From: a virus
Taxonomy: Duplodnaviria > Heunggongvirae > Uroviricota > Caudoviricetes
IMG/VR virus record: IMGVR_UViG_2700989521_000016
Length of the DNA: 29,192 bases
Direction: 5' to 3' (one strand)
Shown: positions 5,026 through 16,952 of the stretch, in pieces
Layout: each line of letters begins with the position of its first letter
How positions within the stretch are numbered: the first letter of the stretch is position 1
The notes under the pieces: generated by a model
Seen by the model: only the letters and a program-made list of their open reading frames with translations
What the model was told of the DNA's origin: nothing
The model's database searches: none
Position numbers and translations under genes: made by a program

Positions 5026-5102
5026 TTACCGTTGAGGTAATAATTATGCGTATTTGGTTTGATGTCAATAGATATGAGTTGAAAAAATTACCTGCAAGGT
5101 AA
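5026..5102. promoter_or_regulatory. PL-like leftward early promoter region with two perfect TTACC-N5-GGTAA operator palindromes (5026-5040, 5088-5102)
   Basis: Perfect palindromes TTACCGTTGAGGTAA and TTACCTGCAAGGTAA read directly; minus-strand TTGACA (5063-5068) and CATAAT/TAATTA-like -10 candidates lie between and adjacent to them; exact -35/-10 spacing not resolved. Confidence 0.6.
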
Positions 5103-5159: not shown

Positions 5160-5744
5160 TTATTGTTTGTTTTTTTCGTTCTGGTTGATGACAAATTCAA
5201 TGTAACTTTCGATCTTTGCTTTCTCGGTTTCAGGTAACAATGCGTAGCGCGAGCGGTCATAGTTGATAGTTGCAGGGTCGTGCGGGTGAATCAGTAGTTC
5301 ATATCCGTGACGCCCGAATGCAGATGCAACATTCTCCAGAGTGGAAATGGAAACGCTGACCTCATTGTTTAACAGGCGGCTGATTGTCACCTGGGCGACG
5401 CCGGATGCGCGGTGAAGTTTTCCCTGAGTTGAAAGGTCGCGGCTTTCACTCATCCAGCGTTCCAGGTTGTGAGCCGCCAGCTGACCAATGTCGCTTGGTC
5501 CAACAGGCTGAAAACCCTCCTGAGAAAGCGAGCGATCGATATCAAGCCAGTTACGTGGTTTATTGGCGGCAGCTTCAATTTTTCGCGCAACCTGGTCGCC
5601 GATAACCTTCTTGCCAAGAGCCCAGCGGTTTACCAGATTTGCCTGAGTTCCAAGTTTTTCTGCCATCCGCGTCTGAACACCATTGAATTCACGGTCGATC
5701 AAGTCGTTGAGATTTTGCCTGCGGACGTCCTGGATACTTTTCAT
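5160..5744 (-). CDS. Prophage repressor candidate with two tandem XRE-type helix-turn-helix domains and no recognisable S24 peptidase domain
   Basis: 194 aa; two HTH-like segments (MAEKLGTQANLVNRWALGKK...; ASGVAQVTISRLLNNEVSVSISTLENVASAFG); divergent from Cro-like gene with operator palindromes between them. Confidence 0.75.
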   Translation of the reverse strand: MKSIQDVRRQNLNDLIDREFNGVQTRMAEKLGTQANLVNRWALGKKVIGDQVARKIEAAANKPRNWLDIDRSLSQEGFQPVGPSDIGQLAAHNLERWMSESRDLSTQGKLHRASGVAQVTISRLLNNEVSVSISTLENVASAFGRHGYELLIHPHDPATINYDRSRYALLPETEKAKIESYIEFVINQNEKNKQ

Positions 5745-5898: not shown

Positions 5899-6129
5899 AT
5901 GAGCGATAACGGACATTTCGATTTCAAAAAGCACTGGCTTGCACTTACTCCGGATGAGCGTGAAGCCTTCGCACAGGAAGCCGGAACGACGAGTCACTAT
6001 ATCCAGACTCACTTAACAGGTAAGCGCAAAATGACAGGTAAAGTATTGATGAATGGGCTTTTTAAAGCCTGTAAAACAAGACAATGGCTGCGCTCAAAAG
6101 CAGAACTGGCATACTTCTTCTACTCATGA
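5899..6129 (+). CDS. Cro-like / YdaS-like small DNA-binding regulator
   Basis: 76 aa; position divergent from repressor; pattern resembles Cro/CI-type HTH (EAFAQEAGTTSHYIQTHLTGKRKM); weak SD. Confidence 0.65.
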   Translation: MSDNGHFDFKKHWLALTPDEREAFAQEAGTTSHYIQTHLTGKRKMTGKVLMNGLFKACKTRQWLRSKAELAYFFYS

Positions 6130-6150
6130 TATCCAGCCACAAACCTCTGT

Positions 6151-6173
6151 AGACCGCCATCCGGCGGTCTTTT
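6151..6173 (+). terminator. Rho-independent terminator after the Cro-like gene (tR1-like position)
   Basis: Stem GACCGCC/GGCGGTC (6151-6168, loop ATC) followed by TTTT (6169-6172). Confidence 0.65.
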
Positions 6174-6279
6174 CATATCTATTCGCACCTTAAAGGTAAT
6201 AAAAAACCAAATCTGGTTGATCTTTTTTTTGTGTCAGCACAAAATAACCGTAATCCCAATACTAATAACAGGGCTTACC

Positions 6280-6480
6280 ATGGAAATCATTACACGTATT
6301 GATGCCGCAAAGCGCGGACTTAAACGCTACTACACCGGAAAACCATGTAAGCACGGACATGACAGTGAACGCTGGGTTTACAACGGACACTGTGTTGAGT
6401 GCACCATGGAATCAAACCGTCGCATCAGGGCAGAGATTAAGCAGATCATGATTAATTCCTCCCCACAACATTCAAGCTGA
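6280..6480 (+). CDS. Small zinc-ribbon-like protein (66 aa) in the cII-equivalent position
   Basis: ATG at 6280; C-x-H-G-H ... C-x2-C motif (KPCKHGHDSERWVYNGHCVEC); the ORF track's longer version begins with TTG at 6217 and was not preferred; weak RBS. Confidence 0.45.
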   Translation: MEIITRIDAAKRGLKRYYTGKPCKHGHDSERWVYNGHCVECTMESNRRIRAEIKQIMINSSPQHSS

Positions 6481-6495
6481 TAGCGGAGATTAATC

Positions 6496-7311
6496 ATGAG
6501 CAGACATGCAACAGATTGGGCCTGGGAGACAGATCCAGGTAGCTCATCATTAAAGCTCATACTGCTCTCGATGGCTGACAGAGCCGATGAATATAACCTC
6601 TGCTACCCCAGCATAGAACGCCTCGTTAAAGACACTTGCCTGAATAAAAAAACCGTGCAGGCCGGGCTTATATCGCTCATGAAAATGGGGCTTATTTCAG
6701 ATACCGGAGAGAGAAAGGGAGCGACGAAAAGAGTGCGGGTTTTCTCTCTTAATATAACCAAAAACGGGAACATTAAAGGCAACCGGGAAGGGGGGAATGA
6801 ACCCGAAAACGGTAATGTTCCCGAAAACGGTAATATAACCAAAAACGGGATGTTGAATGATCCCAAAAACGGGATGTTGAATGATCCCAAAAACGGGATC
6901 CAGAACCAGTCATATAACCAGTCATTTAACCAAGAGAGGGAGAGCAGGACAAAAAACGGGAATTCTGTGCCTCATGACCCCGGCGCAAACAACGCCGTGA
7001 TGAATAACTTTGTTCCTCCTGGTGGGCCAGGGCAATTAGGCAAATTTGTCATGCATGAACAATGGCAGCCATCAGATGACTTTCTTCGGAAAAGCTCATT
7101 GCAGGGGATCTACCTGGACAGTCTGCCAACGGCACAGGAACTTGCAGAGTTCAGAATTTACTGGATGGCTGAGGGTAAGGCATACCATCAGGCACAGTGG
7201 GAGCAGAAGCTGGCAAGGCGGCTGCAGATTAGCAGACAGAAGCAATCAACATTACCTGATAACAACGTTCCGCACTGGAACAGCCCTGAAGCATGGGAGG
7301 ATTTCTTGTGA
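6496..7311 (+). CDS. Replication initiator protein (lambda O-like organisation: N-terminal HTH domain, iteron-encoded linker, C-terminal DnaT-like domain)
   Basis: 271 aa; sits directly upstream of and overlaps the P-like gene; internal iteron array encodes an NG-rich linker; GGAG SD upstream. Confidence 0.75.
   Translation: MSRHATDWAWETDPGSSSLKLILLSMADRADEYNLCYPSIERLVKDTCLNKKTVQAGLISLMKMGLISDTGERKGATKRVRVFSLNITKNGNIKGNREGGNEPENGNVPENGNITKNGMLNDPKNGMLNDPKNGIQNQSYNQSFNQERESRTKNGNSVPHDPGANNAVMNNFVPPGGPGQLGKFVMHEQWQPSDDFLRKSSLQGIYLDSLPTAQELAEFRIYWMAEGKAYHQAQWEQKLARRLQISRQKQSTLPDNNVPHWNSPEAWEDFL
6757..6900. repeat. Iteron array (candidate origin of replication) embedded in the replication initiator gene
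   Basis: Direct repeats read from sequence: CCCGAAAACGGTAAT at 6802-6816 and 6820-6834 (18-bp period); CCAAAAACGGGATGTTGAATGAT at 6839-6862 and 6863-6886 plus a partial third copy; related CCAAAAACGGGAA at 6757-6769. Confidence 0.7.
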
Positions 7312-8093
7312 ACAACGTTTTTACCGCAATACAAAACCGTGACGGAGAGGCCCTTTCTCGCATGTCAGGTTATGAGCATCAGTACACCAACAATGACAAC
7401 GTAGTGAACATGTCAGCAGAGAGGCTTGTTGATGCCCTTTTCAAACAGTTGAAACAACTGTTTCCGGCGGCAGTGGTAACCAACCTGAAGACGCCAGAGC
7501 AGGAAGTTGCTGCAAAACAGCAGTGGATTGCTGCGTTTGCCGAAGGGGGGATCCGAACCCGTAAACAGGTTTCTGCTGGTATGCGCCACGCCCGCGCCAG
7601 TGATTCTCCGTTCTGGCCGTCGCCAGGGCAATTCATCAAGTGGTGCAAAGACAGCAAGATGGTTCTTGGCGTCACCATTGACGATGTGATGACGGAGTTT
7701 CACCGGTACAGCAAGGAAAAAAGTTTATATCCTGGTGGTCCCGAAAGATTCCCGTGGCGGCATCCGGTTATGTACTGGGTCGTATGTGATACCCGCCGTG
7801 CAATGTATCAGCGCCAGCTTAGCGAGATTGAGGTTGAGAAACACGCGCGCAGGCTGCTCGATGATTGGGCGAAAAAGGTGGCTTCCGGACAGCAGATACC
7901 CGATCCGGTGATCAGCATACAGGCAAAGCCAGAACCCATGAGTACGCCTCCGGAAACAGGGAGAGACGTTTACCATCCACCAGGGCGAAGTTTCGGGTGC
8001 ATGCCTAACGCCGCCACCCTGGGGGGAATAACACCGGCGCAGTGGCTGATGGAGGAATACAGGCGGGGAAAGGCGGCAGGATTTATCAAGTAA
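7308..8093 (+). CDS. Replication protein P-like (DnaB helicase loader family)
   Basis: Motif SAGMRHARASDSPFWPSPGQFIKWCKD parallels lambda P (NAGMRVARRQNRPFLPSPGQFVAWCRE) from memory; GTG at 7308 overlaps the O-like stop (GTGA) with GGGAGG SD 7 nt upstream; alternative ATG start at 7293. Confidence 0.85.
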   Translation: MNNVFTAIQNRDGEALSRMSGYEHQYTNNDNVVNMSAERLVDALFKQLKQLFPAAVVTNLKTPEQEVAAKQQWIAAFAEGGIRTRKQVSAGMRHARASDSPFWPSPGQFIKWCKDSKMVLGVTIDDVMTEFHRYSKEKSLYPGGPERFPWRHPVMYWVVCDTRRAMYQRQLSEIEVEKHARRLLDDWAKKVASGQQIPDPVISIQAKPEPMSTPPETGRDVYHPPGRSFGCMPNAATLGGITPAQWLMEEYRRGKAAGFIK

Positions 8094-8098
8094 TACCA

Positions 8099-8118
8099 GC
8101 GCGATAGCGCATTTTTTT
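8099..8118 (+). terminator. Probable rho-independent terminator after the P-like gene
   Basis: Short GC stem (GCGC GATA GCGC, 8099-8110) followed by ATTTTTTT (8111-8118); stem is only 4 bp so strength uncertain. Confidence 0.45.
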
Positions 8119-8130
8119 ACGCCTCAATAA

Positions 8131-8207
8131 TTACCTTCTGGGTAATGAGATATTCTAAAATCTATTGATTTCGTGTCTTATGTGGTTTTTAATTACCTCA
8201 GGGGTAA
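8131..8207. promoter_or_regulatory. Promoter region of the nin-like operon with two perfect TTACC-N5-GGTAA palindromes (8131-8145, 8193-8207)
   Basis: TTACCTTCTGGGTAA and TTACCTCAGGGGTAA read directly; TTGATT (8165-8170) then 17 bp then TTTAAT (8188-8193) looks like a sigma70 promoter; second palindrome overlaps the -10/RBS of the gene starting at 8211. Confidence 0.6.
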
Positions 8208-8210
8208 ATC

Positions 8211-8555
8211 ATGAGAAAGCAGATACAGGCTCTTGGTCGACTCAAAACAGGCCAGATGAACAAAACAGAATCTGCGTATTGCCAGCACCTTGAGCAGCGT
8301 AAACGTGCAGGGGAAATCGCCTGGTATCGGTTCGAGGGTATCAAGCTGCGGCTGGCTGACAACACGTTCTATACGCCAGATTTCGCTGTGATGCTCGCCA
8401 CTGGTGAGATGGAACTGCATGAAGTGAAAGGTTTCTGGACCGACGACGCTAGGGTGAAAACCAAAGTCGCCGCAGATCAGTATCCGTTCCGAATCATCGG
8501 GGTAACGGTTAAGCCAAAGAAAGCAGGTGGCGGCTGGAATATCGAAGAGTTCTGA
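8211..8555 (+). CDS. Hypothetical protein, possible PD-(D/E)XK-fold nuclease-like
   Basis: 114 aa; pattern TPDFAV...ELHEVKG suggestive of a D...E-x-K motif; inference only. Confidence 0.6.
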   Translation: MRKQIQALGRLKTGQMNKTESAYCQHLEQRKRAGEIAWYRFEGIKLRLADNTFYTPDFAVMLATGEMELHEVKGFWTDDARVKTKVAADQYPFRIIGVTVKPKKAGGGWNIEEF

Positions 8556-8616
8556 ATCGACGATCTTTTTAGTTATCAATGTAATCAATAAGTTATGTGG
8601 ATAAGCGAGGGTAAAG

Positions 8617-9120
8617 ATGGAAAGTAATATCAAAGGGTTAGTTTCCGCCGGGCATGAGATGGCTTCGGAACTGAAAGCAGAATGTGGGGCCGTTGATATG
8701 CGTAGTGTGGCAAAGCTGATCAGCAATTTGGCAACGCAATTGGAAGTGCAACTGGTGCGTGCTAATGCGCTGGCCGAAGACCACCAGAGAGCGATTGAGT
8801 CAATTAAGCAGGCTGATGCAGCTGTTAAGTTGGCACACGAGAAGTTTTCGGCGCTGGCAGCGGAGAATGCAAAGCTGAAGAAGTTCTGCAAAGACGCTGC
8901 ATTCGATGCCGATTACGAAGCAGAGCTAGGTATGGAGAGAGGTGGATTCAGTGATGCACTTAACGAAATAAAAACCCCAGCCACCGACGCCTTCCTGGCT
9001 GAAGTGCGGGCTCAGGGTGTGGAGATGCTCTACGCAAGCAGAGCGGCTCAGTGGGCTGATGAATTGTTAGCTGAGCTTAATGAATTCGCCACTCAGCTTC
9101 GCGAAGGAGGTGCAGCATGA
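8617..9120 (+). CDS. Hypothetical protein (167 aa), Ala/Glu-rich, probably coiled-coil
   Basis: ORF with GAGGGT SD; no family recognised. Confidence 0.6.
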   Translation: MESNIKGLVSAGHEMASELKAECGAVDMRSVAKLISNLATQLEVQLVRANALAEDHQRAIESIKQADAAVKLAHEKFSALAAENAKLKKFCKDAAFDADYEAELGMERGGFSDALNEIKTPATDAFLAEVRAQGVEMLYASRAAQWADELLAELNEFATQLREGGAA

Positions 9121-9350
9121 GCAATCAGATTAAGCCTGCCAGAAGAATTGATGCAGATGGTAATGCCAGAGACGTCGACAACGCTTACGAGGAGGGAATC
9201 TACGCCGCCGTAATAGGCCTCGAGGTAACTGACAATCCGTATTCAACAGATGATCCACTCAACCGTAAGCTTTGGCTAAAGGCTTTCGCTGGGGTCAAGA
9301 GTGGAAAGATCAGAAGCGCCGCCCAGTTACGCAAAGGAGGCAACCAGTGA
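9117..9350 (+). CDS. Hypothetical protein (77 aa)
   Basis: ATG overlaps previous stop (ATGA); GGAGG SD upstream. Confidence 0.55.
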   Translation: MSNQIKPARRIDADGNARDVDNAYEEGIYAAVIGLEVTDNPYSTDDPLNRKLWLKAFAGVKSGKIRSAAQLRKGGNQ

Positions 9351-10120
9351 GCAAGATTGATTATCAGGCACTGCGTGAAGCGGCAGAAAAAGCAACGTGT
9401 GGTGAGTGGTCGCTCGAATATGGAGAGGGCCGATTTGATGGTGATGATGCGCTAATTAATCGCGAGGCTGCTGGATATATTCCCATTTGCAGAATTGAAG
9501 GAGCGCATCCTGAAAGCGGTTTCGATGAAGATTTCCAAATGGAACAGCAGGCCAATGCTGAATTCATCGCTGCAGCCAATCCGGCTACCGTGCTGGCACT
9601 GCTGGATGAACGGGAAAGAAACCAGCAATACATCAAACGCCGCGACCAGGAGAACGAGGATATTGCGCTAACGGTAGGGAAGCTGAGAGTTGAGCTGGAA
9701 GCCGCAGAGAATAACCTCATTGATAGTGAATGCCATGTTGCTGAACTGGAAGAAGCGCTACGCAATAAGCAGGCGTTACTTGAAGCATCAGAGAAGCGCA
9801 ACGCAAAATTACAAAGCGAGAATGCATACATCCGCAACCGGTACAAAGAACTGGACCTATTAATCGGGAAAAACATTCTGGTCATGCAGGCTGCCATTAT
9901 CGAATGGCAATCGACTGGCGACGCTAAAAGCGGACTAGCATGGATTTATAACACACTGTTTGGCCCAGGCGAATTGCCGGACGAATCTGAGAAAAATGCT
10001 CAGGCCTACTTTAATCGCAAATATGCACCGATTGACGAAAAGCTTATGGCGCTTCACAAGTGGTTTTGGGAACAAAGTGAAGCCGAGCGCGCCGCTGGCA
10101 TTCGCATCAAAGGAGAGTGA
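9347..10120 (+). CDS. Ead/Ea22-like protein (tentative), coiled-coil central region
   Basis: GTG at 9347 overlaps the previous stop (GTGA) with AAGGAGG SD 6 nt upstream; N-terminal IDYQALREAAEKATCGEW motif recalls the ead/Ea22-like family from memory; the ORF track's upstream extension from 9272 overlaps the preceding gene and was not used. Confidence 0.6.
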   Translation: MSKIDYQALREAAEKATCGEWSLEYGEGRFDGDDALINREAAGYIPICRIEGAHPESGFDEDFQMEQQANAEFIAAANPATVLALLDERERNQQYIKRRDQENEDIALTVGKLRVELEAAENNLIDSECHVAELEEALRNKQALLEASEKRNAKLQSENAYIRNRYKELDLLIGKNILVMQAAIIEWQSTGDAKSGLAWIYNTLFGPGELPDESEKNAQAYFNRKYAPIDEKLMALHKWFWEQSEAERAAGIRIKGE

Positions 10121-10121
10121 T

Positions 10122-10331
10122 ATGGCTATCGCTGCAAGTTACACCATGCATCTCTATTGTGATTGCCTCCAGTGTACAGATGGCAAATATAAGTCGCCAG
10201 ACTTCGGTGAGTATATAGGTACGTCATGGGCTGGCTGTGCAAAAGAGGCGCGCAAGGATGGCTGGCGAATAAGCAAAGACAAAACGCGTGCTTTTGCGCC
10301 CGGGCATAAAGTTTTGAGGATTAACAAATGA
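10122..10331 (+). CDS. Small Cys-containing hypothetical protein (69 aa)
   Basis: ATG at 10122 with AGGAGA SD; C-x-C-x2-C cluster (HLYCDCLQCTDG); the track's longer ORF from 9960 overlaps the upstream gene. Confidence 0.5.
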   Translation: MAIAASYTMHLYCDCLQCTDGKYKSPDFGEYIGTSWAGCAKEARKDGWRISKDKTRAFAPGHKVLRINK

Positions 10332-11017
10332 CCACTATAACCAAAGAGCGACTGATGACAATCAAGGAGTGGCGCGAAACATACGGACCTGGTAGCAACG
10401 TTGTGCTGCCAGCAGAAGAAGCGGAAGAACTGGCACGAATTGCACTGGCATCACTGGGAGCAGAACCAGTTGCTTATATTTTCAAACATCCGGCCGGGAA
10501 ATTATTCTGGGCTTTAACGGATGAAAGCAATAAAGAGCAAGCGGACGTTATTCCTGTTTATGCTGCCGCGCCTGCGTCGGTTGTGCCGGATAATGCATCA
10601 GAGCCTCTTGCTTATGCTTACAAAGAGCTTACGCCTGAGATTATGCGCAACCATTTAGCTGTATTCGAGCGATATGGAATAGCCCCAAACGATAGCTCTA
10701 CCACAATTCAGGCACTGCGAATCGCGCTGGATGGCATAGAGCGGAGCGACGCCATGCTTCATGGTGCCGAACCTGTAAGCCAAACTTACAAGTTGAACCA
10801 GCTATCGGGCAACTCTCCGGTAACTCCGGATGATTGGATAAGCTGTAGTGAGCAAATGCCGGACGACGCGCAGTGGTGCGTAGTGAACACAGAATACGGG
10901 TATTACGTGCAATGCTGGTCTGAAGGTCAAGGGTGGCTTGGTGATGATATCAGCATCCCTGAATGCGATGTAATCAATTGGATGCCGCTACCAGAACCGC
11001 CGCAGGAGGTGAAGTAA
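10328..11017 (+). CDS. DUF551-domain protein (tentative)
   Basis: 229 aa; C-terminal pattern DDWISCSEQMP...W...NWMPLPEPP resembles DUF551 from memory; ATG overlaps previous stop (ATGA). Confidence 0.6.
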   Translation: MTTITKERLMTIKEWRETYGPGSNVVLPAEEAEELARIALASLGAEPVAYIFKHPAGKLFWALTDESNKEQADVIPVYAAAPASVVPDNASEPLAYAYKELTPEIMRNHLAVFERYGIAPNDSSTTIQALRIALDGIERSDAMLHGAEPVSQTYKLNQLSGNSPVTPDDWISCSEQMPDDAQWCVVNTEYGYYVQCWSEGQGWLGDDISIPECDVINWMPLPEPPQEVK

Positions 11018-11385
11018 TGGACTATTCACAGTTAAGTGATTTTGAAATTAACAGAATGGTAGGAGACATAATTTTTAAAGGCCTTTGGGCATGTAAACCG
11101 GAAACATCAGGGAATAACACCAACAAATGGTATTACGGAAATGCTGATACAACTTTTGAGCCATTAAACCCTTTACCTGACTACTGCAATGATCCGAGCG
11201 CCTCATGGCCTGTAATCGCAAAACATCAGATCAGCATATGTGCATACGAAAGAAATAATCCTGGAATGAAGAATGAATATTGGTGGGAGGCGGATAGATT
11301 TTGTGAATTTATTACCATAGACAACAACCCACTCCGCGCCGCCATGATTGTATTTCTCATGATGCAGGAAAATCAGAATGGCTAA
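11017..11385 (+). CDS. Hypothetical protein (122 aa), possibly NinX/DUF2591-like
   Basis: ATG at 11017 overlaps previous stop (TAATG); GGAGG SD; N-terminus MDYSQLSDFEINRMVG; family assignment from memory only. Confidence 0.55.
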   Translation: MDYSQLSDFEINRMVGDIIFKGLWACKPETSGNNTNKWYYGNADTTFEPLNPLPDYCNDPSASWPVIAKHQISICAYERNNPGMKNEYWWEADRFCEFITIDNNPLRAAMIVFLMMQENQNG

Positions 11386-11716
11386 ATCATCAGCAGAGCG
11401 CAAAGCCGCTCAGAGAGCCAGACAAGCTGCATCTGGTGTGCGTAAGCTGGAAATTGTGCTTGATGCTCAGGAAATTGAAATGCTGGAGCGTAACTGTGCC
11501 ACGCGTCGCCCCGGGCGTGCGCCTTACGAATTTGGTGAGTATATAGCGTTACTGATCCGCCAGGATGATGCACGCGTGCGCGGGCGTATAAAATCGATCA
11601 GCAGAAAACGTTGCGGTAAGTGCGGCGAGAGAGTTCCAGTTAATTCATGCCCGTGTAATGGTGACTCGCAATGCTGGGTGACTAAAGGCTGGCATGAAAC
11701 GAAATTAATAGTGTGA
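11378..11716 (+). CDS. Hypothetical protein (112 aa) with C-terminal Cys cluster, last gene before terminator and packaging genes
   Basis: Basic N-terminus, RCGKCGERVPVNSCPCNGDSQCW zinc-binding-like cluster; could be a regulator, but no family recognised. Confidence 0.55.
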   Translation: MAKSSAERKAAQRARQAASGVRKLEIVLDAQEIEMLERNCATRRPGRAPYEFGEYIALLIRQDDARVRGRIKSISRKRCGKCGERVPVNSCPCNGDSQCWVTKGWHETKLIV

Positions 11717-11724: not shown

Positions 11725-11765
11725 GAGTAGATTATGCATGATGAATTTGATGGGTTTTGAATACT

Positions 11766-11791
11766 GCCGCCAACTATGGCGGCTTTATTTT
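11766..11791 (+). terminator. Rho-independent terminator separating early/middle genes from the packaging genes
   Basis: Stem GCCGCCA/TGGCGGC (11766-11783, loop ACTA) followed by TTTATTTT (11784-11791). Confidence 0.75.
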
Positions 11792-11802
11792 GCATGATAC
11801 TA

Positions 11803-11835
11803 TTACCACAACGGTAACTATTACCACGGTGGTTA
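11803..11835. promoter_or_regulatory. Two TTACC-N5-GGTAA-type palindromes directly upstream of the small terminase start (11803-11817 perfect, 11821-11835 9/10)
   Basis: TTACCACAACGGTAA and TTACCACGGTGGTTA read directly; second site abuts the terS ATG at 11835. Confidence 0.6.
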
Positions 11836-12431
11836 TGATGCCTGCTGAACCTAAAACCTATAAACGCAAATCAACGCAATTTAAGCCACTAACAGCAATG
11901 CAGGAGGCTTATTGCCAGTCATACATCAAAACGCCTGAAAACCAGACTCAGGCAGCGATTAACGCAGGATTCTCCCCAAATACAGCGGCAGTTAAAGCCA
12001 GTGTCATGATGCGCGATGAACGCATTCAAAAACGGATTGCCGAGTTGATGGAGGAGCGCAACAAACGAATGCGCATCAGTGCTGATTACGTTCTCATGCG
12101 CCTGGTGGAGATCGACCAGATGGACGTGATCGACATCCTCAACGACGATGGGAGCCTTAAACCAATCTGTGAGTGGCCGAAAATTTGGCGCACTACGCTT
12201 AGTGGCTTTGATCTGTCATCGACCATCATGAACATGAACGAGGATTCGATAGAGACAATCCTCAAAAAAATTAAATGGCCTGACAAGGTGAAGAACCTTG
12301 AGCTGATTGGTAAGCATGTTGATGTCAACGCGTTCAAAGAACGTCTGGATGTTAATGTGAATGTGACAATTGCTGATCGCATAGCAGCAGCCAGGAAGCG
12401 ACTCAAAGAACGTCAGGATGGTAATCACTGA
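11835..12431 (+). CDS. terS: Terminase small subunit
   Basis: ATG at 11835 (MMPAEPKTYKRKSTQFKPLTAMQEAYCQ...), downstream of terminator; position immediately upstream of the large terminase; the track's 11757 start lies inside the terminator and was not used. Confidence 0.7.
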   Translation: MMPAEPKTYKRKSTQFKPLTAMQEAYCQSYIKTPENQTQAAINAGFSPNTAAVKASVMMRDERIQKRIAELMEERNKRMRISADYVLMRLVEIDQMDVIDILNDDGSLKPICEWPKIWRTTLSGFDLSSTIMNMNEDSIETILKKIKWPDKVKNLELIGKHVDVNAFKERLDVNVNVTIADRIAAARKRLKERQDGNH

Positions 12432-13953: not shown

Positions 13954-13973
13954 AGCCAGCTCATCGGCTGGCT
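13954..13973. terminator. Bidirectional terminator-like hairpin between terL and the convergent moron gene
   Basis: Stem AGCCAGC/GCTGGCT with loop TCATCG; A-rich upstream (U tract on minus strand) and GTTTGTG downstream on plus strand. Confidence 0.55.
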
Positions 13974-13993: not shown

Positions 13994-14350
13994 TTATTGC
14001 TCGCTTAGCTTCTGCTTCAGCAAGTAACCTTCGAGCATCCAGATTTTGTTTACAGCATTCTGCCGGGCAATCTTCCGACCAATTTCTGCATCAAAGTTTT
14101 CCTGGCTTGCACAGGCACTCTCTCCGGTGACGGTGAAGCCATTCTTCAGCACCAGTACGCAGAAAGTCAGGAGGTCTGTAGAGTTATGCGCTGTCCATGA
14201 ATCGCCAACGCCCATATTGGCGGCACGAATGCCGTCATAAGCAGTAAAGAAATGCTCTTCAAGAATGATGCTTTCGATATATTGAGGCGTAACTCGCGGT
14301 GCCGTTTTGCCTTTCTCAACGATTTCTTTTTCGATTTGCTGGTCGTTCAT
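13994..14350 (-). CDS. Moron-like hypothetical protein (118 aa) on the opposite strand to the late genes; possibly Gp49/Sf6 gp66-like family (tentative)
   Basis: ATG at 14348-14350 with AAGGTGAG SD; flanked by terminator hairpins on both sides; motif NGFTVTGESACASQENFDAEIGRKIA recalls a conserved phage family from memory. Confidence 0.7.
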   Translation of the reverse strand: MNDQQIEKEIVEKGKTAPRVTPQYIESIILEEHFFTAYDGIRAANMGVGDSWTAHNSTDLLTFCVLVLKNGFTVTGESACASQENFDAEIGRKIARQNAVNKIWMLEGYLLKQKLSEQ

Positions 14351-14361
14351 AATCTCACCTT

Positions 14362-14385
14362 AAAAAAATGCCCGGCGAACCGGGC
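14362..14385 (-). terminator. Strong rho-independent terminator between the tRNA and the moron gene
   Basis: Minus strand reads GCCCGG-UUCG-CCGGGC followed by A + UUUUUUU; U tract ends 12 nt before the moron start codon. Confidence 0.75.
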
Positions 14386-14547
14386 GAACTGGAAGCAATG
14401 AGTTCTTCCTTCCGTGGATGTACGGGTTTACAGCATGAAGTCATCGCAATGGCGTCCTGCTGTAAAAAGTGCGGTGATAGTCCTTCAAGGGAAACCATCA
14501 CCGCCAAGCACTGGAACTTCTGGCATCACGGTCCTTAGGCGTGATTC

Positions 14548-14624
14548 TGGCGTGGCATGCAGGATTCGAACCTGCGACCAACCGCTTAGAAGGCGGTTGC
14601 TCTGTCCGACTGAGCTAATGCCAC
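14548..14624 (-). tRNA. tRNA-Arg (anticodon UCU), phage-borne
   Basis: Manually folded 77-nt cloverleaf on minus strand: acceptor GTGGCAT/ATGCCAC, D-arm GCTC/GAGC, anticodon stem ACCGC/GCGGT with loop CTTCTAA (anticodon TCT), T-arm GCAGG-TTCGAAT-CCTGC identical to E. coli argU as recalled, discriminator G and encoded CCA. Confidence 0.8.
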
Positions 14625-14946
14625 AACGCTGAGAGCACTTAGCCTGTTAAGGCACCACACTTTGTCGCGGCTCCATAAATGCTCTCATCGTTGTACCCTC
14701 GTCTCTTCCGAGGCGTCACACCGAATCGCCGGGATGGTGAATCCCCGTGCGCGGAATAAAACCGCTCGACTTGCACATTCCGGCTACCTGGTTCGTTTGC
14801 CCGAGCAAGGGAGGGTGCCCCTTAAACGTATCCAGGCCGCTATCGGCGCATGTGCCATACGCCGTACTGCTCAAAATAAAAGCTCACTCCACCTGTTCAA
14901 TTTAACGACAAGCCAGTCAGGTTAGTAACCGGAATGAACTTTTTGG

Positions 14947-14961
14947 TTACCTGAAAGGTAA
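14947..14961. promoter_or_regulatory. Perfect TTACC-N5-GGTAA palindrome at the head of the virion-gene operon
   Basis: TTACCTGAAAGGTAA read directly, right half-site runs into GGTAATAAT (possible -10); a second GGTAATAAT at 15017-15025. Confidence 0.6.
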
Positions 14962-15051
14962 TAATTCGTGCGTTAAATGTCAACCGACTACGATAAATAA
15001 ATCATATGTGGTTAAATTGGTAATAATTTAATTGCGTACGGAGTCATTGAT

Positions 15052-15258
15052 ATGTGCATGGGTAGCTCACCATCAGTGCCTGCAACACCAGAAGTTCAGG
15101 CAGCACCACAGGAGCAGGATGCCGCCGTTGTTGATGCCCGCGACGAAGAAACTCGTCGCCGTCGCGCTGCTGCTGGTCGTAGTTCTACGCTGCTTACCGG
15201 TTCTCAGGGCGACACATCAACCGCTAATACCAGCGGTAAAACGCTACTTGGTCAGTAA
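15052..15258 (+). CDS. Small hypothetical protein (68 aa) preceding the portal gene
   Basis: ATG at 15052 with CGGAG SD; Ala/Pro/Arg-rich; no family recognised. Confidence 0.5.
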   Translation: MCMGSSPSVPATPEVQAAPQEQDAAVVDARDEETRRRRAAAGRSSTLLTGSQGDTSTANTSGKTLLGQ

Positions 15259-15272
15259 CCGGAGTCATTGAA

Positions 15273-16952
15273 ATGGCGGAAACAACTAAAGAGCGATTGA
15301 ACAAACAGTTCGCACAACTTGAAAGCGAGCGTCAGTCGTTCGAGCCGCACTGGCGCGAGTTGAGTGATTACATCAACCCGCGTGGTTCCCGCTTTCTGAC
15401 TTCTGAGGTCAACCGTAACGATCGACGCAATACACGCATTATTGATTCGACCGGGACTATGGCGGCGCGCACTCTCGCCAGCGGCATGATGTCAGGCATC
15501 ACAAGCCCCGCGCGTCCGTGGTTTCGCCTGGCTACGCCAGATCCTGAAATGATGGATTATGGCCCTGTTAAGTTGTGGCTTGAGGCGGTGCAGAACCGCA
15601 TGAACGATATGTTTAATGAGTCGAATCTCTATCAGTCTCTGCCGCAGTTATACGGAAGCCTCGGCACATACAGCACTGGTGCAATGGCAGTGCTGGAGGA
15701 TGACGAGGACATCATTCGCACAATGCCATTCCCGATAGGCAGTTACTACCTGGCTAACTCACCTCGTGGCAGTGTGGACACCTGTTTTCGCAAGTTCTCT
15801 ATGACTGTTCGTCAGCTTGTTCAGGAGTTCGGGCTAAATAACGTCAGCGAATCCGTAAAAAGCATGTGGGAAAGCGGCACCTACGAGAAGTGGATTGAAG
15901 TGATGCATTCGGTTTACCCGAACATTGACCGCGATACATCGAAGCTGGATAGCAAGAACAAGCCATTCAAATCGGTTTATTACGAGGTTGGTGGCGATAA
16001 CGACAAGTTGTTGCGTGAGTCCGGATTCGATGAGTTTCCAATTATGGCTCCGCGCTGGGAAGTTAACGGCGAAGATGTTTATGGATCATCATGCCCGGGT
16101 ATGCTGGCGCTTGGACCTGTTAAGGCATTGCAGCTTCTCCAGAAGCGCAAGTCGCAGTTGATTGATAAAGCCACCAATCCGCCGATGGTTGCTCCGACTT
16201 CCCTCAAGAATCAGCGCGCCTCCCTTCTTCCTGGCGACATCACGTATATCGATCAGATTACTGGTCAGGATGGTTTCAGGCCTGCTTATCTGGTTAACCC
16301 CAGTACAGCAGATCTGGTAGCAGACATTCAGGACACTCGCCAAATCATTAACAGCGCCTACTTTGTCGATCTGTTCATGATGTTGCAGAACATCAATACC
16401 CGCTCGATGCCTGTTGAAGCGGTGATCGAAATGAAAGAAGAAAAACTTCTGATGTTGGGGCCGGTTCTGGAGCGTCTGAACGACGAATGTCTTAATCCTC
16501 TCATTGACCGCGCTTTCTCGATGATGGTGCGTAAAAACATGCTGCCGCCACCGCCTGACGCGATGGAAGGTATGCCCCTGAAGGTCGAATACATTTCCGT
16601 CATGGCTCAGGCGCAGAAGTCTATCGGCCTGTCCAGTCTGGCGTCTACGGTCAACTTCATTGGTCAACTTGCGCAAGCGAAACCAGAAGCTCTCGACAAA
16701 CTCAACGTTGATCAGGCGATCGATGCATTCGCTGATATGTCCGGAGTGTCTCCAACCGTCATTGTTCCGCAGGAACAGGTTGAGCAGGCTCGCCAGCAAC
16801 GGGCACAGCAACAACAGCAGCAACAAATGATGGCGATGGGGATGGCGGCGGCACAGGGTGCCAAGACGCTAAGCGAAGCTAAAACTTCGGATCCGAGTGT
16901 TTTGTCAGCTATGGCGAATGCAGTTAGTGGTCAGGGTGGGCAATCACAATGA
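15273..16952 (+). CDS. Portal (head-to-tail connector) protein, podovirus type
   Basis: 559 aa; position after terminase; size and C-terminal Gln/Ala/Met-rich tail (QQRAQQQQQQQMMAMGMAAAQG) recall podovirus connector proteins; family assignment from memory. Confidence 0.8.
   Translation: MAETTKERLNKQFAQLESERQSFEPHWRELSDYINPRGSRFLTSEVNRNDRRNTRIIDSTGTMAARTLASGMMSGITSPARPWFRLATPDPEMMDYGPVKLWLEAVQNRMNDMFNESNLYQSLPQLYGSLGTYSTGAMAVLEDDEDIIRTMPFPIGSYYLANSPRGSVDTCFRKFSMTVRQLVQEFGLNNVSESVKSMWESGTYEKWIEVMHSVYPNIDRDTSKLDSKNKPFKSVYYEVGGDNDKLLRESGFDEFPIMAPRWEVNGEDVYGSSCPGMLALGPVKALQLLQKRKSQLIDKATNPPMVAPTSLKNQRASLLPGDITYIDQITGQDGFRPAYLVNPSTADLVADIQDTRQIINSAYFVDLFMMLQNINTRSMPVEAVIEMKEEKLLMLGPVLERLNDECLNPLIDRAFSMMVRKNMLPPPPDAMEGMPLKVEYISVMAQAQKSIGLSSLASTVNFIGQLAQAKPEALDKLNVDQAIDAFADMSGVSPTVIVPQEQVEQARQQRAQQQQQQQMMAMGMAAAQGAKTLSEAKTSDPSVLSAMANAVSGQGGQSQ

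What the first reader, a model, noticed from the sequence alone, without database searches (positions are those of the whole stretch)
14947..15025. Virion operon promoter region carries the same operator palindrome fused to GGTAATAAT elements
The perfect site at 14947-14961 runs into GGTAATAAT, and a second GGTAATAAT lies at 15017-15025 just upstream of the first structural gene. The right half-site plus TAAT also recurs at 5036-5044. The operator half-site may double as part of a -10 element, so regulator binding would occlude RNA polymerase at the structural-gene promoter.
Basis: partly seen in the sequence, partly recalled or inferred. Interest (0 to 1): 0.6.

Follow-up and report, generated by a model that had tools for sequence, protein, structure and literature searches.

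The report
Repressor operator in a divergent phage promoter region
The palindrome upstream of the virion genes is a real binding site of the known epsilon15/phiV10-type prophage repressor, already annotated at the same spot in phage epsilon15, but it most likely sits on a promoter that fires leftward towards a tRNA gene rather than on the virion-gene promoter.

Summary
The window is a phiV10/epsilon15-like temperate podophage (Uetakevirus, about 98% identical to phiV10). TTACC-N5-GGTAA at 14947-14961 is real. It is one of 7 perfect copies (0 expected), all in regulatory gaps. It is the positional homologue of a site that GenBank annotates as "repressor" binding in epsilon15. The cognate repressor (5160-5744, minus strand) is a full-length homologue of the structurally characterised SPC32H Rep.

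The second GGTAATAAT lies at 15019-15027, not 15017-15025.

- The TAAT after the perfect site is not conserved and has no -35 partner.
- On the opposite strand an invariant TTGACA lies exactly 17 bp from TACCTT, inside the operator. This is the second-best sigma-70 match in the window.
- The leftward promoter points at a structured leader, tRNA-Arg and a gp49/66-family gene.
- The second GGTAATAAT lies in a 23-bp block that is invariant across 15 phages. This block probably holds the late-promoter -10. It has no -35 and carries only half an operator, 62 bp from the full one.

This is a known kind of element. The direction of control and the late-promoter mechanism need transcription start mapping.

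The parts
14947..14961 (.). Rep operator O(virion): TTACC-TGAAA-GGTAA
   Evidence: Exact palindrome. Half-sites are invariant in 15 diverse phages/prophages and in 105 of 106 close relatives. It is the positional homologue of epsilon15 protein_bind 'repressor' 2931-2947.
14978..14983 (-). -35 hexamer TTGACA of the predicted leftward sigma-70 promoter (TGTCAA on the + strand)
   Evidence: GTCAA is invariant in 15 of 15 diverse sequences and TGTCAA in 106 of 106 close relatives. It is always 17 bp from TACC(T/C)T, while the spacer varies. The PWM score of 13.2 is second best in the whole window.
14955..14960 (-). -10 hexamer TACCTT of the leftward promoter, lying inside the operator; predicted start near 14948
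   Evidence: T-12, A-11 and T-7 are invariant. Operator spacer positions 3-4 ('AA' on +) are invariant only at this operator. 14956 tolerates A/G, giving TACCCT. This is an inference. No transcription start data exist.
14957..14965 (+). First GGTAATAAT (operator right half plus TAAT)
   Evidence: Exact. The TAAT is not conserved in epsilon15, SPC32H, PAT1 or Tyrion. There is no -35 on the + strand. Its complement AATTAT|TACC is identical to the PL -10/operator junction but lies only 11 bp from TTGACA.
14988..15003 (.). Conserved A/T-rich stretch CTACG-AT-AAATAAATC between the two back-to-back promoters
   Evidence: CTACG and AAATAA are invariant in 15 sequences. Reading it as an UP-like element is an inference only.
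15003..15013 (+). CATATGTGGTT motif shared by late and middle promoters
   Evidence: The exact 11-mer or a variant with one or two mismatches lies upstream of the virion, tailspike, lysis and p45-type operons in phiV10, epsilon15, SPC32H and Tyrion. Its function is unknown.
15009..15031 (+). Invariant block TGGTTAAATTGGTAATAATTTAA, probably the core of the virion (late) promoter
   Evidence: Identical in all 15 diverse sequences, while the 5' UTR after it diverges. Candidate -10 hexamers are TAAATT (15013-18), AATAAT (15022-27) and TAATTT (15024-29). No -35 is present.
15019..15027 (+). Second GGTAATAAT: a right half-site GGTAA plus -10-like TAATAAT
   Evidence: Coordinates corrected. Its GGTAA lies exactly 62 bp from the GGTAA of the full operator, the same offset as the full operator pairs 5026/5088 and 8131/8193. 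No indels occur in between in any of the 15 sequences. Rare A<->G variants are seen in prophages.
15040..15054 (+). Shine-Dalgarno GGAG (15040-15043) and ATG (15052) of the first virion-operon gene (15052-15258, epsilon15 gp3 homologue)
   Evidence: PHROG 831, function unknown.
14625..14870 (-). Conserved structured non-coding leader downstream of the leftward promoter
   Evidence: Consensus fold of 7 sequences: 48 pairs, 98.7% paired, 7 pairs with compensatory changes, 0 of 500 shuffles reach the score. No Rfam match.
14548..14624 (-). tRNA-Arg (anticodon UCU), cargo of the leftward unit
   Evidence: ARAGORN and Rfam RF00005, 73 bits.
14471..14504 (-). Intrinsic terminator after the tRNA
14370..14385 (-). 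Second intrinsic terminator, immediately upstream of the gp49/66-family gene
   Evidence: The same arrangement is annotated in epsilon15.
13994..14350 (-). gp49/66-family gene (phiV10 p03 homologue), last gene of the leftward unit; minus-strand terminator at 13954-13973
   Evidence: Pfam PF13876, E 2.7e-34. Terminator.
5160..5744 (-). Rep repressor gene, the cognate binder of the operators
   Evidence: 42% identical over its full length to SPC32H Rep. PDB 5D50 E 4e-42. HTH_3 domain.
5026..5102 (-). PL region: operators 5026-5040 and 5088-5102, and promoter TTGACA-17-AATTAT, whose complement is the third GGTAATAAT (5036-5044)

Best explanation
The 15-bp palindrome is an operator for the phage's own lysogeny repressor, a homologue of the tetrameric Rep of Salmonella phage SPC32H. 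It lies in a divergent control region between a leftward accessory unit and the rightward virion operon.

The operator physically overlaps the -10 hexamer and start site of a strong, conserved LEFTWARD sigma-70 promoter. That promoter is TTGACA at 14983-14978, a 17-bp spacer, and TACCTT at 14960-14955. Bound repressor would therefore directly exclude RNA polymerase from that promoter. In the lysogen this silences a structured leader RNA, tRNA-Arg(UCU) and a gp49/66-family gene.

The rightward virion promoter is a separate element about 60 bp further right, inside the invariant block 15009-15031 that contains the second GGTAATAAT. It lacks a -35 element and carries the CATATGTGGTT motif shared by the other late promoters.

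Repressor control of this late promoter would be indirect. The most likely route is that the second DNA-binding pair of a Rep tetramer, anchored on the full operator, reaches the GGTAA half-site 62 bp away, which is the spacing of the full operator pairs elsewhere. Alternatively, occupancy of the upstream site blocks an activator.

Shown here: the sites, their conservation, their homology to an annotated site, and the repressor homology. Inferred: binding, the transcription start sites, the direction of control, and the half-site contact.
For: Operator identity:
- 7 exact copies against 0 expected, all in regulatory gaps.
- The same consensus is enriched in phiV10 and epsilon15.
- Epsilon15 record AY150271.2 annotates protein_bind 'repressor' at 2931-2947, 105-106 nt upstream of gp3. 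This matches 14947 relative to the ATG at 15052.
- The repressor gene matches PDB 5D50 (SPC32H Rep) at E 4e-42 over its full length.
- Rep is a DNA-binding tetramer whose paired DNA-binding domains recognise palindromic sites (PMC9638917; PMC9986798).
- Over-expressing the identical repressor in phage ZX5 cut endolysin and holin transcripts by more than 99.9% (PMC9782041).

Leftward promoter:
- Its PWM score of 13.2 is second best of 291,610 configurations in the window and beats PL at 12.5.
- In 15 diverse phages and prophages, GTCAA is invariant and always 17 bp from TACC(T/C)T, while the spacer sequence varies.
- In 106 close relatives, common polymorphisms fall in the spacer (14967-69), just upstream of the -35 (14984-87) and in the left flank. 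There is zero variation in TGTCAA, in GGTAA and at 14955, which is T-7.
- Operator spacer positions 3-4 are invariant here but free in the other operators.
- No other promoter conserved across the tRNA-bearing relatives was found for the minus-strand tRNA-Arg.
- Minus-strand terminators lie at 14504-14471, 14385-14370 and 13973-13954.
- The leader folds with strand-specific G-U pairs on the minus strand.
- Relatives carry other minus-strand cargo in the same slot.

Rightward element:
- The 23-bp block is identical in all 15 sequences, and conservation drops right after it.
- The GGTAA-to-GGTAA offset of 62 bp equals that of the operator pairs at PL and p45, with no indels.
- Tailspike promoters carry the analogous GGTAATAGAAT 50 bp from their operator.
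Against: - TACCTT matches only 3 of 6 consensus -10 positions. The tool's simple consensus scan did not call any promoter in 14300-15400.
- No transcription start or binding data exist for this region in any relative I could read. The epsilon15 genome paper and both SPC32H papers were not held.
- The leader before the tRNA would be about 320 nt.
- Invariance of GTCAA and of the spacer 'AA' could reflect some other constraint.
- For the rightward part, only half an operator is present and no -35 is present. Three -10 candidates cannot be told apart.
- Operator-pair spacings in this family are not unique: 18, 48, 62 and 76 bp all occur.
- The low diversity to the right of 14988 among close relatives may simply reflect linkage to the portal gene used to pick them.
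Confidence: 0.55

Rival explanations
1. The first GGTAATAAT (14957-14965) is the -10 of a rightward virion-operon promoter. Repressor bound on the perfect palindrome then directly occludes RNA polymerase at that promoter.
For: AATAAT at 14960-14965 matches 5 of 6 -10 positions. Operator/-10 fusions exist in the family, at PL on the other strand and at epsilon15 PR.
Against: There is no -35 at 15-19 bp upstream on the + strand, and this candidate is not among the top + strand scores. The TAAT is not conserved: GGTAATATC in epsilon15, SPC32H and PAT1, GGTAATTAT in Tyrion. The upstream flank is the most polymorphic and indel-rich part of the region. A start there would give a 5' UTR of about 80 nt running through the far better conserved block.
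Confidence: 0.08
2. The upstream operator is an activator or competition site for the late promoters. It is centred about -70 at the tailspike and lysis promoters and about -80 at the virion promoter. An early lytic protein (for example the Cro-like 76-aa protein, or the p55 regulator) binds there or at the CATATGTGGTT motif to recruit RNA polymerase to promoters that lack a -35. Rep keeps late genes off by occupying the site.
For: - The operator-to--10 distance is exactly 50 nt at both the tailspike (TAGAAT) and lysis (TATRAT) promoters in four phages, despite sequence divergence in between. It is 60-62 nt at the virion promoter, one helical turn more.
- All three late promoters lack a -35 and share CATATRTGGTT.
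- The last early gene, 11378-11716, matches PHROG 536 'transcriptional regulator' at E 6e-54.
- The Cro-like protein matches PHROG 35 'transcriptional repressor'.
Against: - The -10 assignments, and hence the phasing, are guesses.
- The motif-to--10 distance differs between promoters (0, 7 and 10 nt).
- The palindromic version AACC-N6-GGTT is not clearly enriched.
- The p55 structure model was too poor to classify, with pLDDT 59, and there were no Pfam, NCBIfam or PDB hits.
- There is no evidence that any lytic protein binds TTACC-N5-GGTAA.
Confidence: 0.17
3. There is no virion promoter here. The virion genes are transcribed by read-through from the promoter(s) upstream of terS. The operator serves only the leftward promoter, or acts as a roadblock. 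The invariant block is then an RNA or translation signal, or a site for another protein.
For: - No canonical + strand terminator follows terL. The hairpin at 13954-13973 scores only as a minus-strand terminator.
- No convincing rightward sigma-70 promoter is found.
- The block can form a 15-bp hairpin as RNA.
Against: - The hairpin is not significant (z = -1.3; 19 of 200 shuffles fold as well).
- Read-through would have to cross 1.1 kb antisense to an active leftward unit.
- Tailspike and lysis operons, which sit behind minus-strand genes, have the same operator-motif--10 layout. This argues for autonomous late promoters.
- Conservation stops about where a transcript from a -10 in the block would begin.
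Confidence: 0.15
4. The palindrome and the GGTAATAAT copies are chance or relic sequences with no regulatory role.
For: None beyond the absence of direct binding data.
Against: Enrichment is far above the shuffles. The sequences are invariant across Escherichia, Salmonella, Klebsiella, Enterobacter, Citrobacter and other hosts while the flanks diverge.
Confidence: 0.02

Closest known systems
Predicted repressor-binding sites of Salmonella phage epsilon15 (GenBank AY150271.2 protein_bind 'repressor / lysogeny')
   Same: The core TTACC-N5-GGTAA is the same. The set of locations is the same: before terS, before gp3 and the virion genes, before the tailspike, at PL, and after the replication genes. 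The virion-operon site is a positional homologue, 105-106 nt upstream of the gp3 start.
   Different: The epsilon15 features are in-silico annotations with no promoter or direction assigned. In epsilon15 the first site reads GGTAATATC, not GGTAATAAT. Epsilon15 lacks the tRNA-Arg cargo.
Rep/Ant switch of Salmonella phage SPC32H (PDB 5D50, 5D4Z)
   Same: The repressor here is a full-length homologue: 42% identity overall and about 54% in the N-terminal DNA-binding part. SPC32H has the same operator, the same leftward TTGACA, the same block and a tRNA-Arg in the same slot. Rep is a tetramer that recognises palindromic sites (PMC9638917).
   Different: I could not read which operators were tested experimentally in SPC32H. 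Binding at the virion-region site, and any two-site bridging, are not shown for either phage.
Lambda CI at OL/OR (cooperative, looping repressor that overlaps promoters)
   Same: A palindromic operator overlaps the -10 and start of early promoters. Sites come in pairs. An oligomeric repressor is able to bridge sites.
   Different: Lambda late genes are controlled through Q antitermination, not by CI operators at late operons. Here every lytic transcription unit, late ones included, carries an operator. Pair spacing is 62 bp (also 48 and 18 bp), not adjacent sites at 23-24 bp. The repressor has no S24 peptidase domain and is inactivated by an antirepressor (my own knowledge of the SPC32H work).
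Mycobacteriophage L5 gp71 'stoperators'
   Same: Many copies of the repressor site are dispersed along the genome, including in late regions, so one repressor silences the whole lytic programme.
   Different: L5 sites are asymmetric and orientation-dependent, and they act on elongation within transcribed regions (my own knowledge). The sites here are symmetric palindromes confined to promoter-containing gaps.

Membership tests
epsilon15/SPC32H-type Rep operator | Palindrome (A)TTACC-N5-GGTAA(T) | tested here: met
   14947-14961 is an exact match.
epsilon15/SPC32H-type Rep operator | Cognate Rep-family repressor encoded in the same genome | tested here: met
   5160-5744 (minus strand) matches PDB 5D50 at E 4e-42 and is 42% identical over its full length.
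epsilon15/SPC32H-type Rep operator | Multiple copies confined to regulatory intergenic regions | tested here: met
   Nine sites in five gaps and none in the structural genes. The same holds in phiV10 and epsilon15.
epsilon15/SPC32H-type Rep operator | Positional homology to an annotated repressor site | tested here: met
   It aligns with the epsilon15 feature 2931-2947.
epsilon15/SPC32H-type Rep operator | Physical binding by Rep and repression in vivo | not testable with these tools
   This needs EMSA or footprinting and reporter fusions. The primary papers were not readable.
Sigma-70 promoter, leftward (TTGACA-17-TACCTT) | -35 and -10 hexamers at 16-18 bp spacing | tested here: met
   The -35 matches 6 of 6, the spacer is 17 bp, and the -10 matches 3 of 6 including T-12, A-11 and T-7. 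Its PWM rank is 2 in the window. The stricter consensus scan did not call it.
Sigma-70 promoter, leftward (TTGACA-17-TACCTT) | Hexamers and spacing conserved while the spacer sequence drifts | tested here: met
   15 diverse and 106 close sequences.
Sigma-70 promoter, leftward (TTGACA-17-TACCTT) | Mapped transcription start | not testable with these tools
   No transcriptome data were available.
   The TAAT is replaced by TATC, TTAT or TACT.
Late promoter using the second GGTAATAAT region | A conserved -10-like hexamer close to the gene | tested here: met
   Invariant block 15009-15031.
Late promoter using the second GGTAATAAT region | A -35 element or an identified activator | tested here: inconclusive
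   No -35 is found. A shared CATATGTGGTT motif and a candidate regulator exist, but they are not linked.
Full Rep operator at the second GGTAATAAT | Both half-sites present | tested here: not met
   15009-15023 reads TGGTT-AAATT-GGTAA, so only the right half matches.
L5-type stoperator | Asymmetric, orientation-dependent site within transcribed regions | tested here: not met
   The sites are symmetric and lie in promoter gaps.

The most novel reading that the evidence does not exclude
In Uetakeviruses one tetrameric repressor directly gates every lytic transcription unit. The late promoters lack a -35 and share a CATATGTGGTT element. Each has a repressor operator phased one or two helical turns upstream (about -70 or -80). 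The same operator might therefore serve as an occluding site for early or divergent promoters and as a docking or competition site for late-promoter activation. Late control would then need no Q-type antiterminator. In addition, the operator-controlled leftward promoter may launch an undescribed structured RNA of about 250 nt, shared with lambdoid phages, that could act as a put-like antiterminator across the two terminators ahead of the gp49/66 gene.
Probability: 0.15. Interest if true: 0.65.

Novelty: new member of a known kind. Interest (0 to 1): 0.35.

Why it matters
The operator itself is routine. It is another copy of a repressor site already annotated in epsilon15, in a very common family of E. 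coli and Salmonella prophages.

What is worth knowing is the layout. The site sits on a leftward promoter for a tRNA-Arg, not on the virion promoter. The virion, tailspike and lysis promoters all look like -35-less promoters with a shared motif and an upstream repressor site. If confirmed, this group would run its late genes under direct repressor control rather than through a lambda-type antitermination cascade.

This matters for predicting prophage inducibility. It also matters for engineering phiV10/SPC32H-type reporter phages, which are used for pathogen detection.

Tried and rejected
- **Primary papers.** I tried to read the epsilon15 genome paper (PMC2698709) and the SPC32H papers (PMC3807360, PMC4983836). 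None is held. Text searches for the operator sequence found nothing useful.
- **Rightward sigma-70 promoter at either GGTAATAAT.** No -35 is present. Sigma-54 spacing, CRP and IHF consensus were checked by eye and do not fit the block.
- **Second motif as a true palindrome (AACC-N6-GGTT).** With one mismatch allowed there are 29 matches against 12.6 expected in phiV10, but 15 against 12.2 in epsilon15. Only a few copies are perfect, so it is better treated as an oriented motif.
- **Excess of rare variants in the second GGTAATAAT among prophages.** It looked striking in the six loci that failed the architecture pattern. In the unbiased set of 106 sequences, similar singletons occur all along 14988-15034, so I do not claim enrichment.
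- **ORF 14662-14925 as a gene.** Only 26 aa align with the mEp460 ORF and the frame is not kept, so it is rejected in favour of a non-coding RNA.
- **Extra tRNAs in the leader.** None were found.
- **Rfam.** Only the tRNA matched.
- **p55 as late activator.** There are no Pfam, NCBIfam or PDB hits, and the AlphaFold model has pLDDT 59. No fold search was run.
- **Invariant block as an RNA hairpin.** z = -1.3, not significant.
- **Covariation test of operator sequence with immunity type.** It was not possible, because every relative found uses the same half-site.
Full report
**What the window is**

The region around the finding is about 98% identical to Escherichia phage phiV10 and its relatives (ZX5, TL-2011b, O157 typing phages). 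It is about 80% identical to Salmonella phages epsilon15, SPN1S and SPC32H. All are temperate podophages of the genus Uetakevirus.

The gene order follows phiV10:
- integrase (1-1251)
- a leftward early operon
- the repressor gene (5160-5744, minus strand)
- a Cro-like gene (5899-6129)
- replication and accessory genes
- terS and terL (to 13903)
- a 1.1-kb gap holding minus-strand features
- a 68-aa gene (15052-15258, epsilon15 gp3 homologue), the portal gene (15273-16952) and the rest of the virion operon

**Checking the observation**

14947-14961 reads TTACCTGAAAGGTAA and runs into GGTAATAAT at 14957-14965. The copy at 5036-5044 is correct.

Both patterns are far above chance.
- TTACC-N5-GGTAA has 7 exact copies against 0 in shuffles. 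With one mismatch allowed it has 9 against 0.34.
- GGTAATAAT has 3 exact copies against 0.10.
- The nine operator-like sites occupy only five regulatory gaps. None lies in the structural genes.

**What the palindrome is**

The GenBank record of epsilon15 (AY150271.2) carries protein_bind features labelled 'repressor / lysogeny'. One of them, at 2931-2947, lies in front of gp3. That site reads ATTACCTAAAAGGTAAT. It aligns base for base with 14947-14961, at the same 105-106 nt from the start codon. The other epsilon15 features lie before terS, before the tailspike, three at PL and one after the replication genes. The window's sites lie in the same kinds of place, and I added PR-region sites by pattern search.

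The repressor gene of the window is a full-length homologue of SPC32H Rep.
- PDB 5D50 matches at E 4e-42, with 42% identity overall.
- The N-terminal DNA-binding part is the better conserved, at about 54%. This fits the shared half-site TTACC.
- Papers that I could read describe SPC32H Rep as a tetramer that binds palindromic sites through pairs of N-terminal domains, with a looping-type tetramerisation domain (PMC9638917; PMC9986798).
- For phage ZX5, whose repressor is identical to that of phiV10, over-expressing the repressor cut endolysin and holin transcripts by more than 99.9% (PMC9782041).

So the operator upstream of the virion operon is a member of a known family. Its presence at this position had already been predicted in epsilon15.

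**Which promoter does it sit on?**

I aligned the region from 11 phage records. I then aligned 15 sequences, including prophages from eight further enterobacterial species found with a DNA pattern scan.

On the + strand, the TAAT that follows the perfect site is not conserved.
- Epsilon15, SPC32H and PAT1 have GGTAATATC.
- Tyrion has GGTAATTAT.
- Scandinavium has GGTAATACT.
- The sequence to the left of the operator, where a -35 would have to lie, is the most variable and indel-rich part of the alignment.

A simple consensus scan finds no promoter in 14300-15400. A position-weight scan gives at most 6.3 for any rightward candidate in 14600-15060, a score reached by about 0.09% of all configurations in the window.

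On the minus strand the picture is different.
- TTGACA (14983-14978) lies exactly 17 bp from TACCTT (14960-14955), which is inside the operator.
- This scores 13.2, the second-best sigma-70 match of the whole window on either strand. It beats PL at 12.5.
- In all 15 diverse sequences GTCAA is invariant, the 17-bp distance is invariant and the spacer sequence differs.
- Operator spacer positions 3 and 4 are 'AA' in 15 of 15 sequences here but are free in the other operators of the same genomes. On the minus strand these positions provide the T at -7.

I also aligned 106 close relatives from IMG/VR, chosen by portal or gp3 sequence.
- Common polymorphisms cluster in the left flank, in operator spacer positions 1-2, in the promoter spacer (14967-69) and just beyond the -35 (14984-87).
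- TGTCAA, the first GGTAA and position 14955 never vary.
- 14956 tolerates A/G, which gives TACCCT as in Tyrion.

This is the footprint expected of a real promoter. The operator covers its -10 and start site, which is the classical geometry for occlusion.

**What the leftward promoter would drive**

- Downstream on the minus strand lies a tRNA-Arg(UCU) at 14624-14548. No other promoter conserved across the tRNA-bearing relatives was found for it.
- Next come two intrinsic terminators (14504-14471 and 14385-14370).
- Next comes a gp49/66-family gene (14350-13994; Pfam PF13876).
- The unit closes with a minus-strand terminator at 13973-13954.
- Relatives carry different cargo in the same slot: small ORFs in Tyrion and a Klebsiella phage, a tRNA-Arg in SPC32H and another Klebsiella phage, and nothing extra in epsilon15. 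All keep the promoter, the operator and the gp49/66 gene.
- AGA codons are frequent in the early-right genes, at 14.4 per 1000 and 24% of Arg codons. A tRNA released on derepression makes sense.

**The third GGTAATAAT at 5036-5044**

On the minus strand it reads AATTAT|TACC. This is the -10 of PL (TTGACA-17-AATTAT, fourth-best score in the window) fused to the downstream PL operator. The promoter before the p45 homologue has the same junction on the + strand (TTGATT-17-TTTAAT|TACC, operator 8193). The terS site shows TACTAT|TACC. In epsilon15 PR the operator lies in the spacer and its right half runs into the -10 (TTGATT-16-AATAAT).

**The second GGTAATAAT and the virion promoter**

It lies in a 23-bp block, TGGTTAAATTGGTAATAATTTAA (15009-15031). 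The block is identical in all 15 diverse sequences, and the 5' UTR that follows diverges. The whole architecture (operator, 17 bp, GTCAA, 25 bp, block) is present in 93 of the 122 loci then held. These are all 11 Uetakevirus locus records, all 8 enterobacterial genome hits and 74 of 80 IMG/VR loci.

The block offers three -10-like hexamers: TAAATT, AATAAT and TAATTT. It has no -35.

Just upstream is CATATGTGGTT (15003-15013). The same 11-mer, or a variant with one or two mismatches, lies upstream of the tailspike and lysis operons and of the p45-type promoter in phiV10, epsilon15, SPC32H and Tyrion.

The tailspike and lysis promoters each have an operator exactly 50 nt before a good -10 (TAGAAT and TATRAT) in all four phages. 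The tailspike promoter also carries GGTAATAGAAT.

At the virion promoter the block's GGTAA lies exactly 62 bp from the operator's GGTAA. This is the same offset as the full operator pairs at PL (5026/5088) and p45 (8131/8193). However, the left half of the would-be second operator (TGGTT) does not match.

I therefore regard the block as the probable core of an activator-dependent or weak late promoter. Rep control of it is plausible but unproven. It could work by tetramer bridging to the half-site or by competition at the upstream site.

A candidate regulator is the last early gene (11378-11716), labelled 'transcriptional regulator' in PHROG 536. It has no Pfam, NCBIfam or PDB match, and its structure model was too poor to use.

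**Rivals**

- Read-through from terL cannot be excluded, because no + strand terminator follows terL. It does not explain the promoter-like layout shared with the tailspike and lysis operons, which sit behind minus-strand genes.
- As RNA, the block forms a hairpin no better than 19 of 200 shuffles.

**Comparison with known systems**

This is a Rep operator of the epsilon15/SPC32H type.
- Four defining features were tested and met: the palindrome, the cognate repressor, the restricted multi-copy distribution and the positional homology.
- Binding itself is not testable here.
- It works like lambda operators in overlapping promoter cores. It differs in that late operons carry operators too, and in the 62-bp pair spacing.
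- It resembles the L5 stoperator system only in being dispersed. The sites are symmetric and promoter-bound, so it is not a member of that kind.

**Seen in passing**

The 250 nt between the leftward promoter and the tRNA are conserved in Uetakeviruses. They are also conserved, at about 82%, in lambdoid phages (mEp460, 1720a-02, cdtI, Stx2c phages). There they lie just downstream of the cI-like gene on the same strand.
- The block is not coding.
- It has no Rfam match.
- It folds on the minus strand into eight helices with seven compensatory pairs and many strand-specific G-U pairs. No shuffle out of 500 reaches its covariation score.
- Its position, after an early-type promoter and before terminators, suggests a put-like antiterminator or processed leader. 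This is speculation.

**Verdict**

The element is a known kind of repressor operator, already annotated at the homologous place in epsilon15. The proposed mechanism is partly supported in principle, but it is most likely assigned to the wrong strand for the perfect site and is unproven for the second element.

The finding as stated is of modest interest. The divergent-promoter reading, the -35-less late promoters and the structured leader are the parts worth an experiment.

Noticed in passing
window 14625-14870, minus strand: A conserved non-coding block of about 250 nt with a covariation-supported fold: 8 helices, 7 compensatory pairs, strand-specific G-U pairs. It has no Rfam match. It is shared with lambdoid phages (mEp460, 1720a-02, cdtI, Stx2c phages), where it lies just downstream of the cI-like gene. 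It may be a put-like antiterminator or a processed tRNA leader.
   Followed up: partly
window 15003-15013 and 8177-8187; phiV10 (L002) 20921, 24739, 35116; epsilon15 (L003) 2988, 24751, 35953: The motif CATATGTGGTT (a palindromic AACCATATATGGTT at the phiV10 lysis promoter) recurs upstream of the virion, tailspike, lysis and p45-type operons. It lies between the repressor operator and a -10-like hexamer. These promoters lack a -35. It may be the site of a late activator.
   Followed up: partly
window 11757-11841: The operator pair at 11803 and 11821 lies inside the ORF that phiV10 annotates as terS (TTG start at 11757). In epsilon15, terS starts right after the second operator. The true start here is probably the ATG at about 11838-11841, with the operator overlapping the ribosome-binding region. 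A terminator-like hairpin (11767-11790) precedes the operators.
   Followed up: partly
window 14362-14385, minus strand: A strong intrinsic terminator (GCCCGGTTCGCCGGGC plus a T-run) sits immediately upstream of the ribosome-binding site of the gp49/66-family gene on the same strand. The same arrangement is annotated in epsilon15. The gene can then only be expressed by terminator read-through.
   Followed up: no
window 15019-15031; IMG/VR loci L026, L032, L035, L078, L089, L140, L057, L063: Rare independent A<->G substitutions hit the second GGTAATAAT (15020, 15022 twice, 15023, 15025 twice) and 15030 (twice) in some prophages. They could be promoter-down changes in decaying prophages. Similar singletons occur elsewhere in 14988-15034, so enrichment is not established.
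   Followed up: partly
window 11378-11716: The last gene of the early-right operon, just before terS, matches PHROG 536 'transcriptional regulator' at E 6e-54. It has a basic N-terminal segment that looks ribbon-helix-helix-like to my eye and a Cys-rich C-terminus. It has no Pfam, NCBIfam or PDB match. The AlphaFold model has pLDDT 59. It is a candidate late regulator.
   Followed up: partly
window 5026/5088, 8131/8193, 14947/15009; L002 and L003 equivalents: Full operator pairs recur at exactly 62 bp centre to centre, at PL and at the p45-type promoter in the window, phiV10 and epsilon15. The downstream site starts at the last base of the -10. Other spacings (18, 48, 76 bp) also occur. This probably reflects the geometry of the Rep tetramer.
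   Followed up: partly
phiV10 locus L002 20830-20850 (outside the window): A LexA-box-like CTGTATAAATACACAG lies between the ant-like gene and the tailspike operator. This is consistent with SOS control of the antirepressor, as reported for SPC32H from my own knowledge.
   Followed up: no
window 5899-11716 compared with other genes: AGA codons make up 24% of Arg codons (14.4 per 1000) in the early-right genes, 8% in the virion genes and none in terS, terL or the repressor. This fits a phage tRNA-Arg(UCU) that is switched on at derepression.
   Followed up: partly
window 14933-14945: AATGAACTTTTTG matches the IHF consensus WATCAANNNNTTR at all but one position, directly left of the operator. 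Epsilon15 annotates an IHF site overlapping its operator. The sequence is polymorphic and is not conserved in distant relatives.
   Followed up: no
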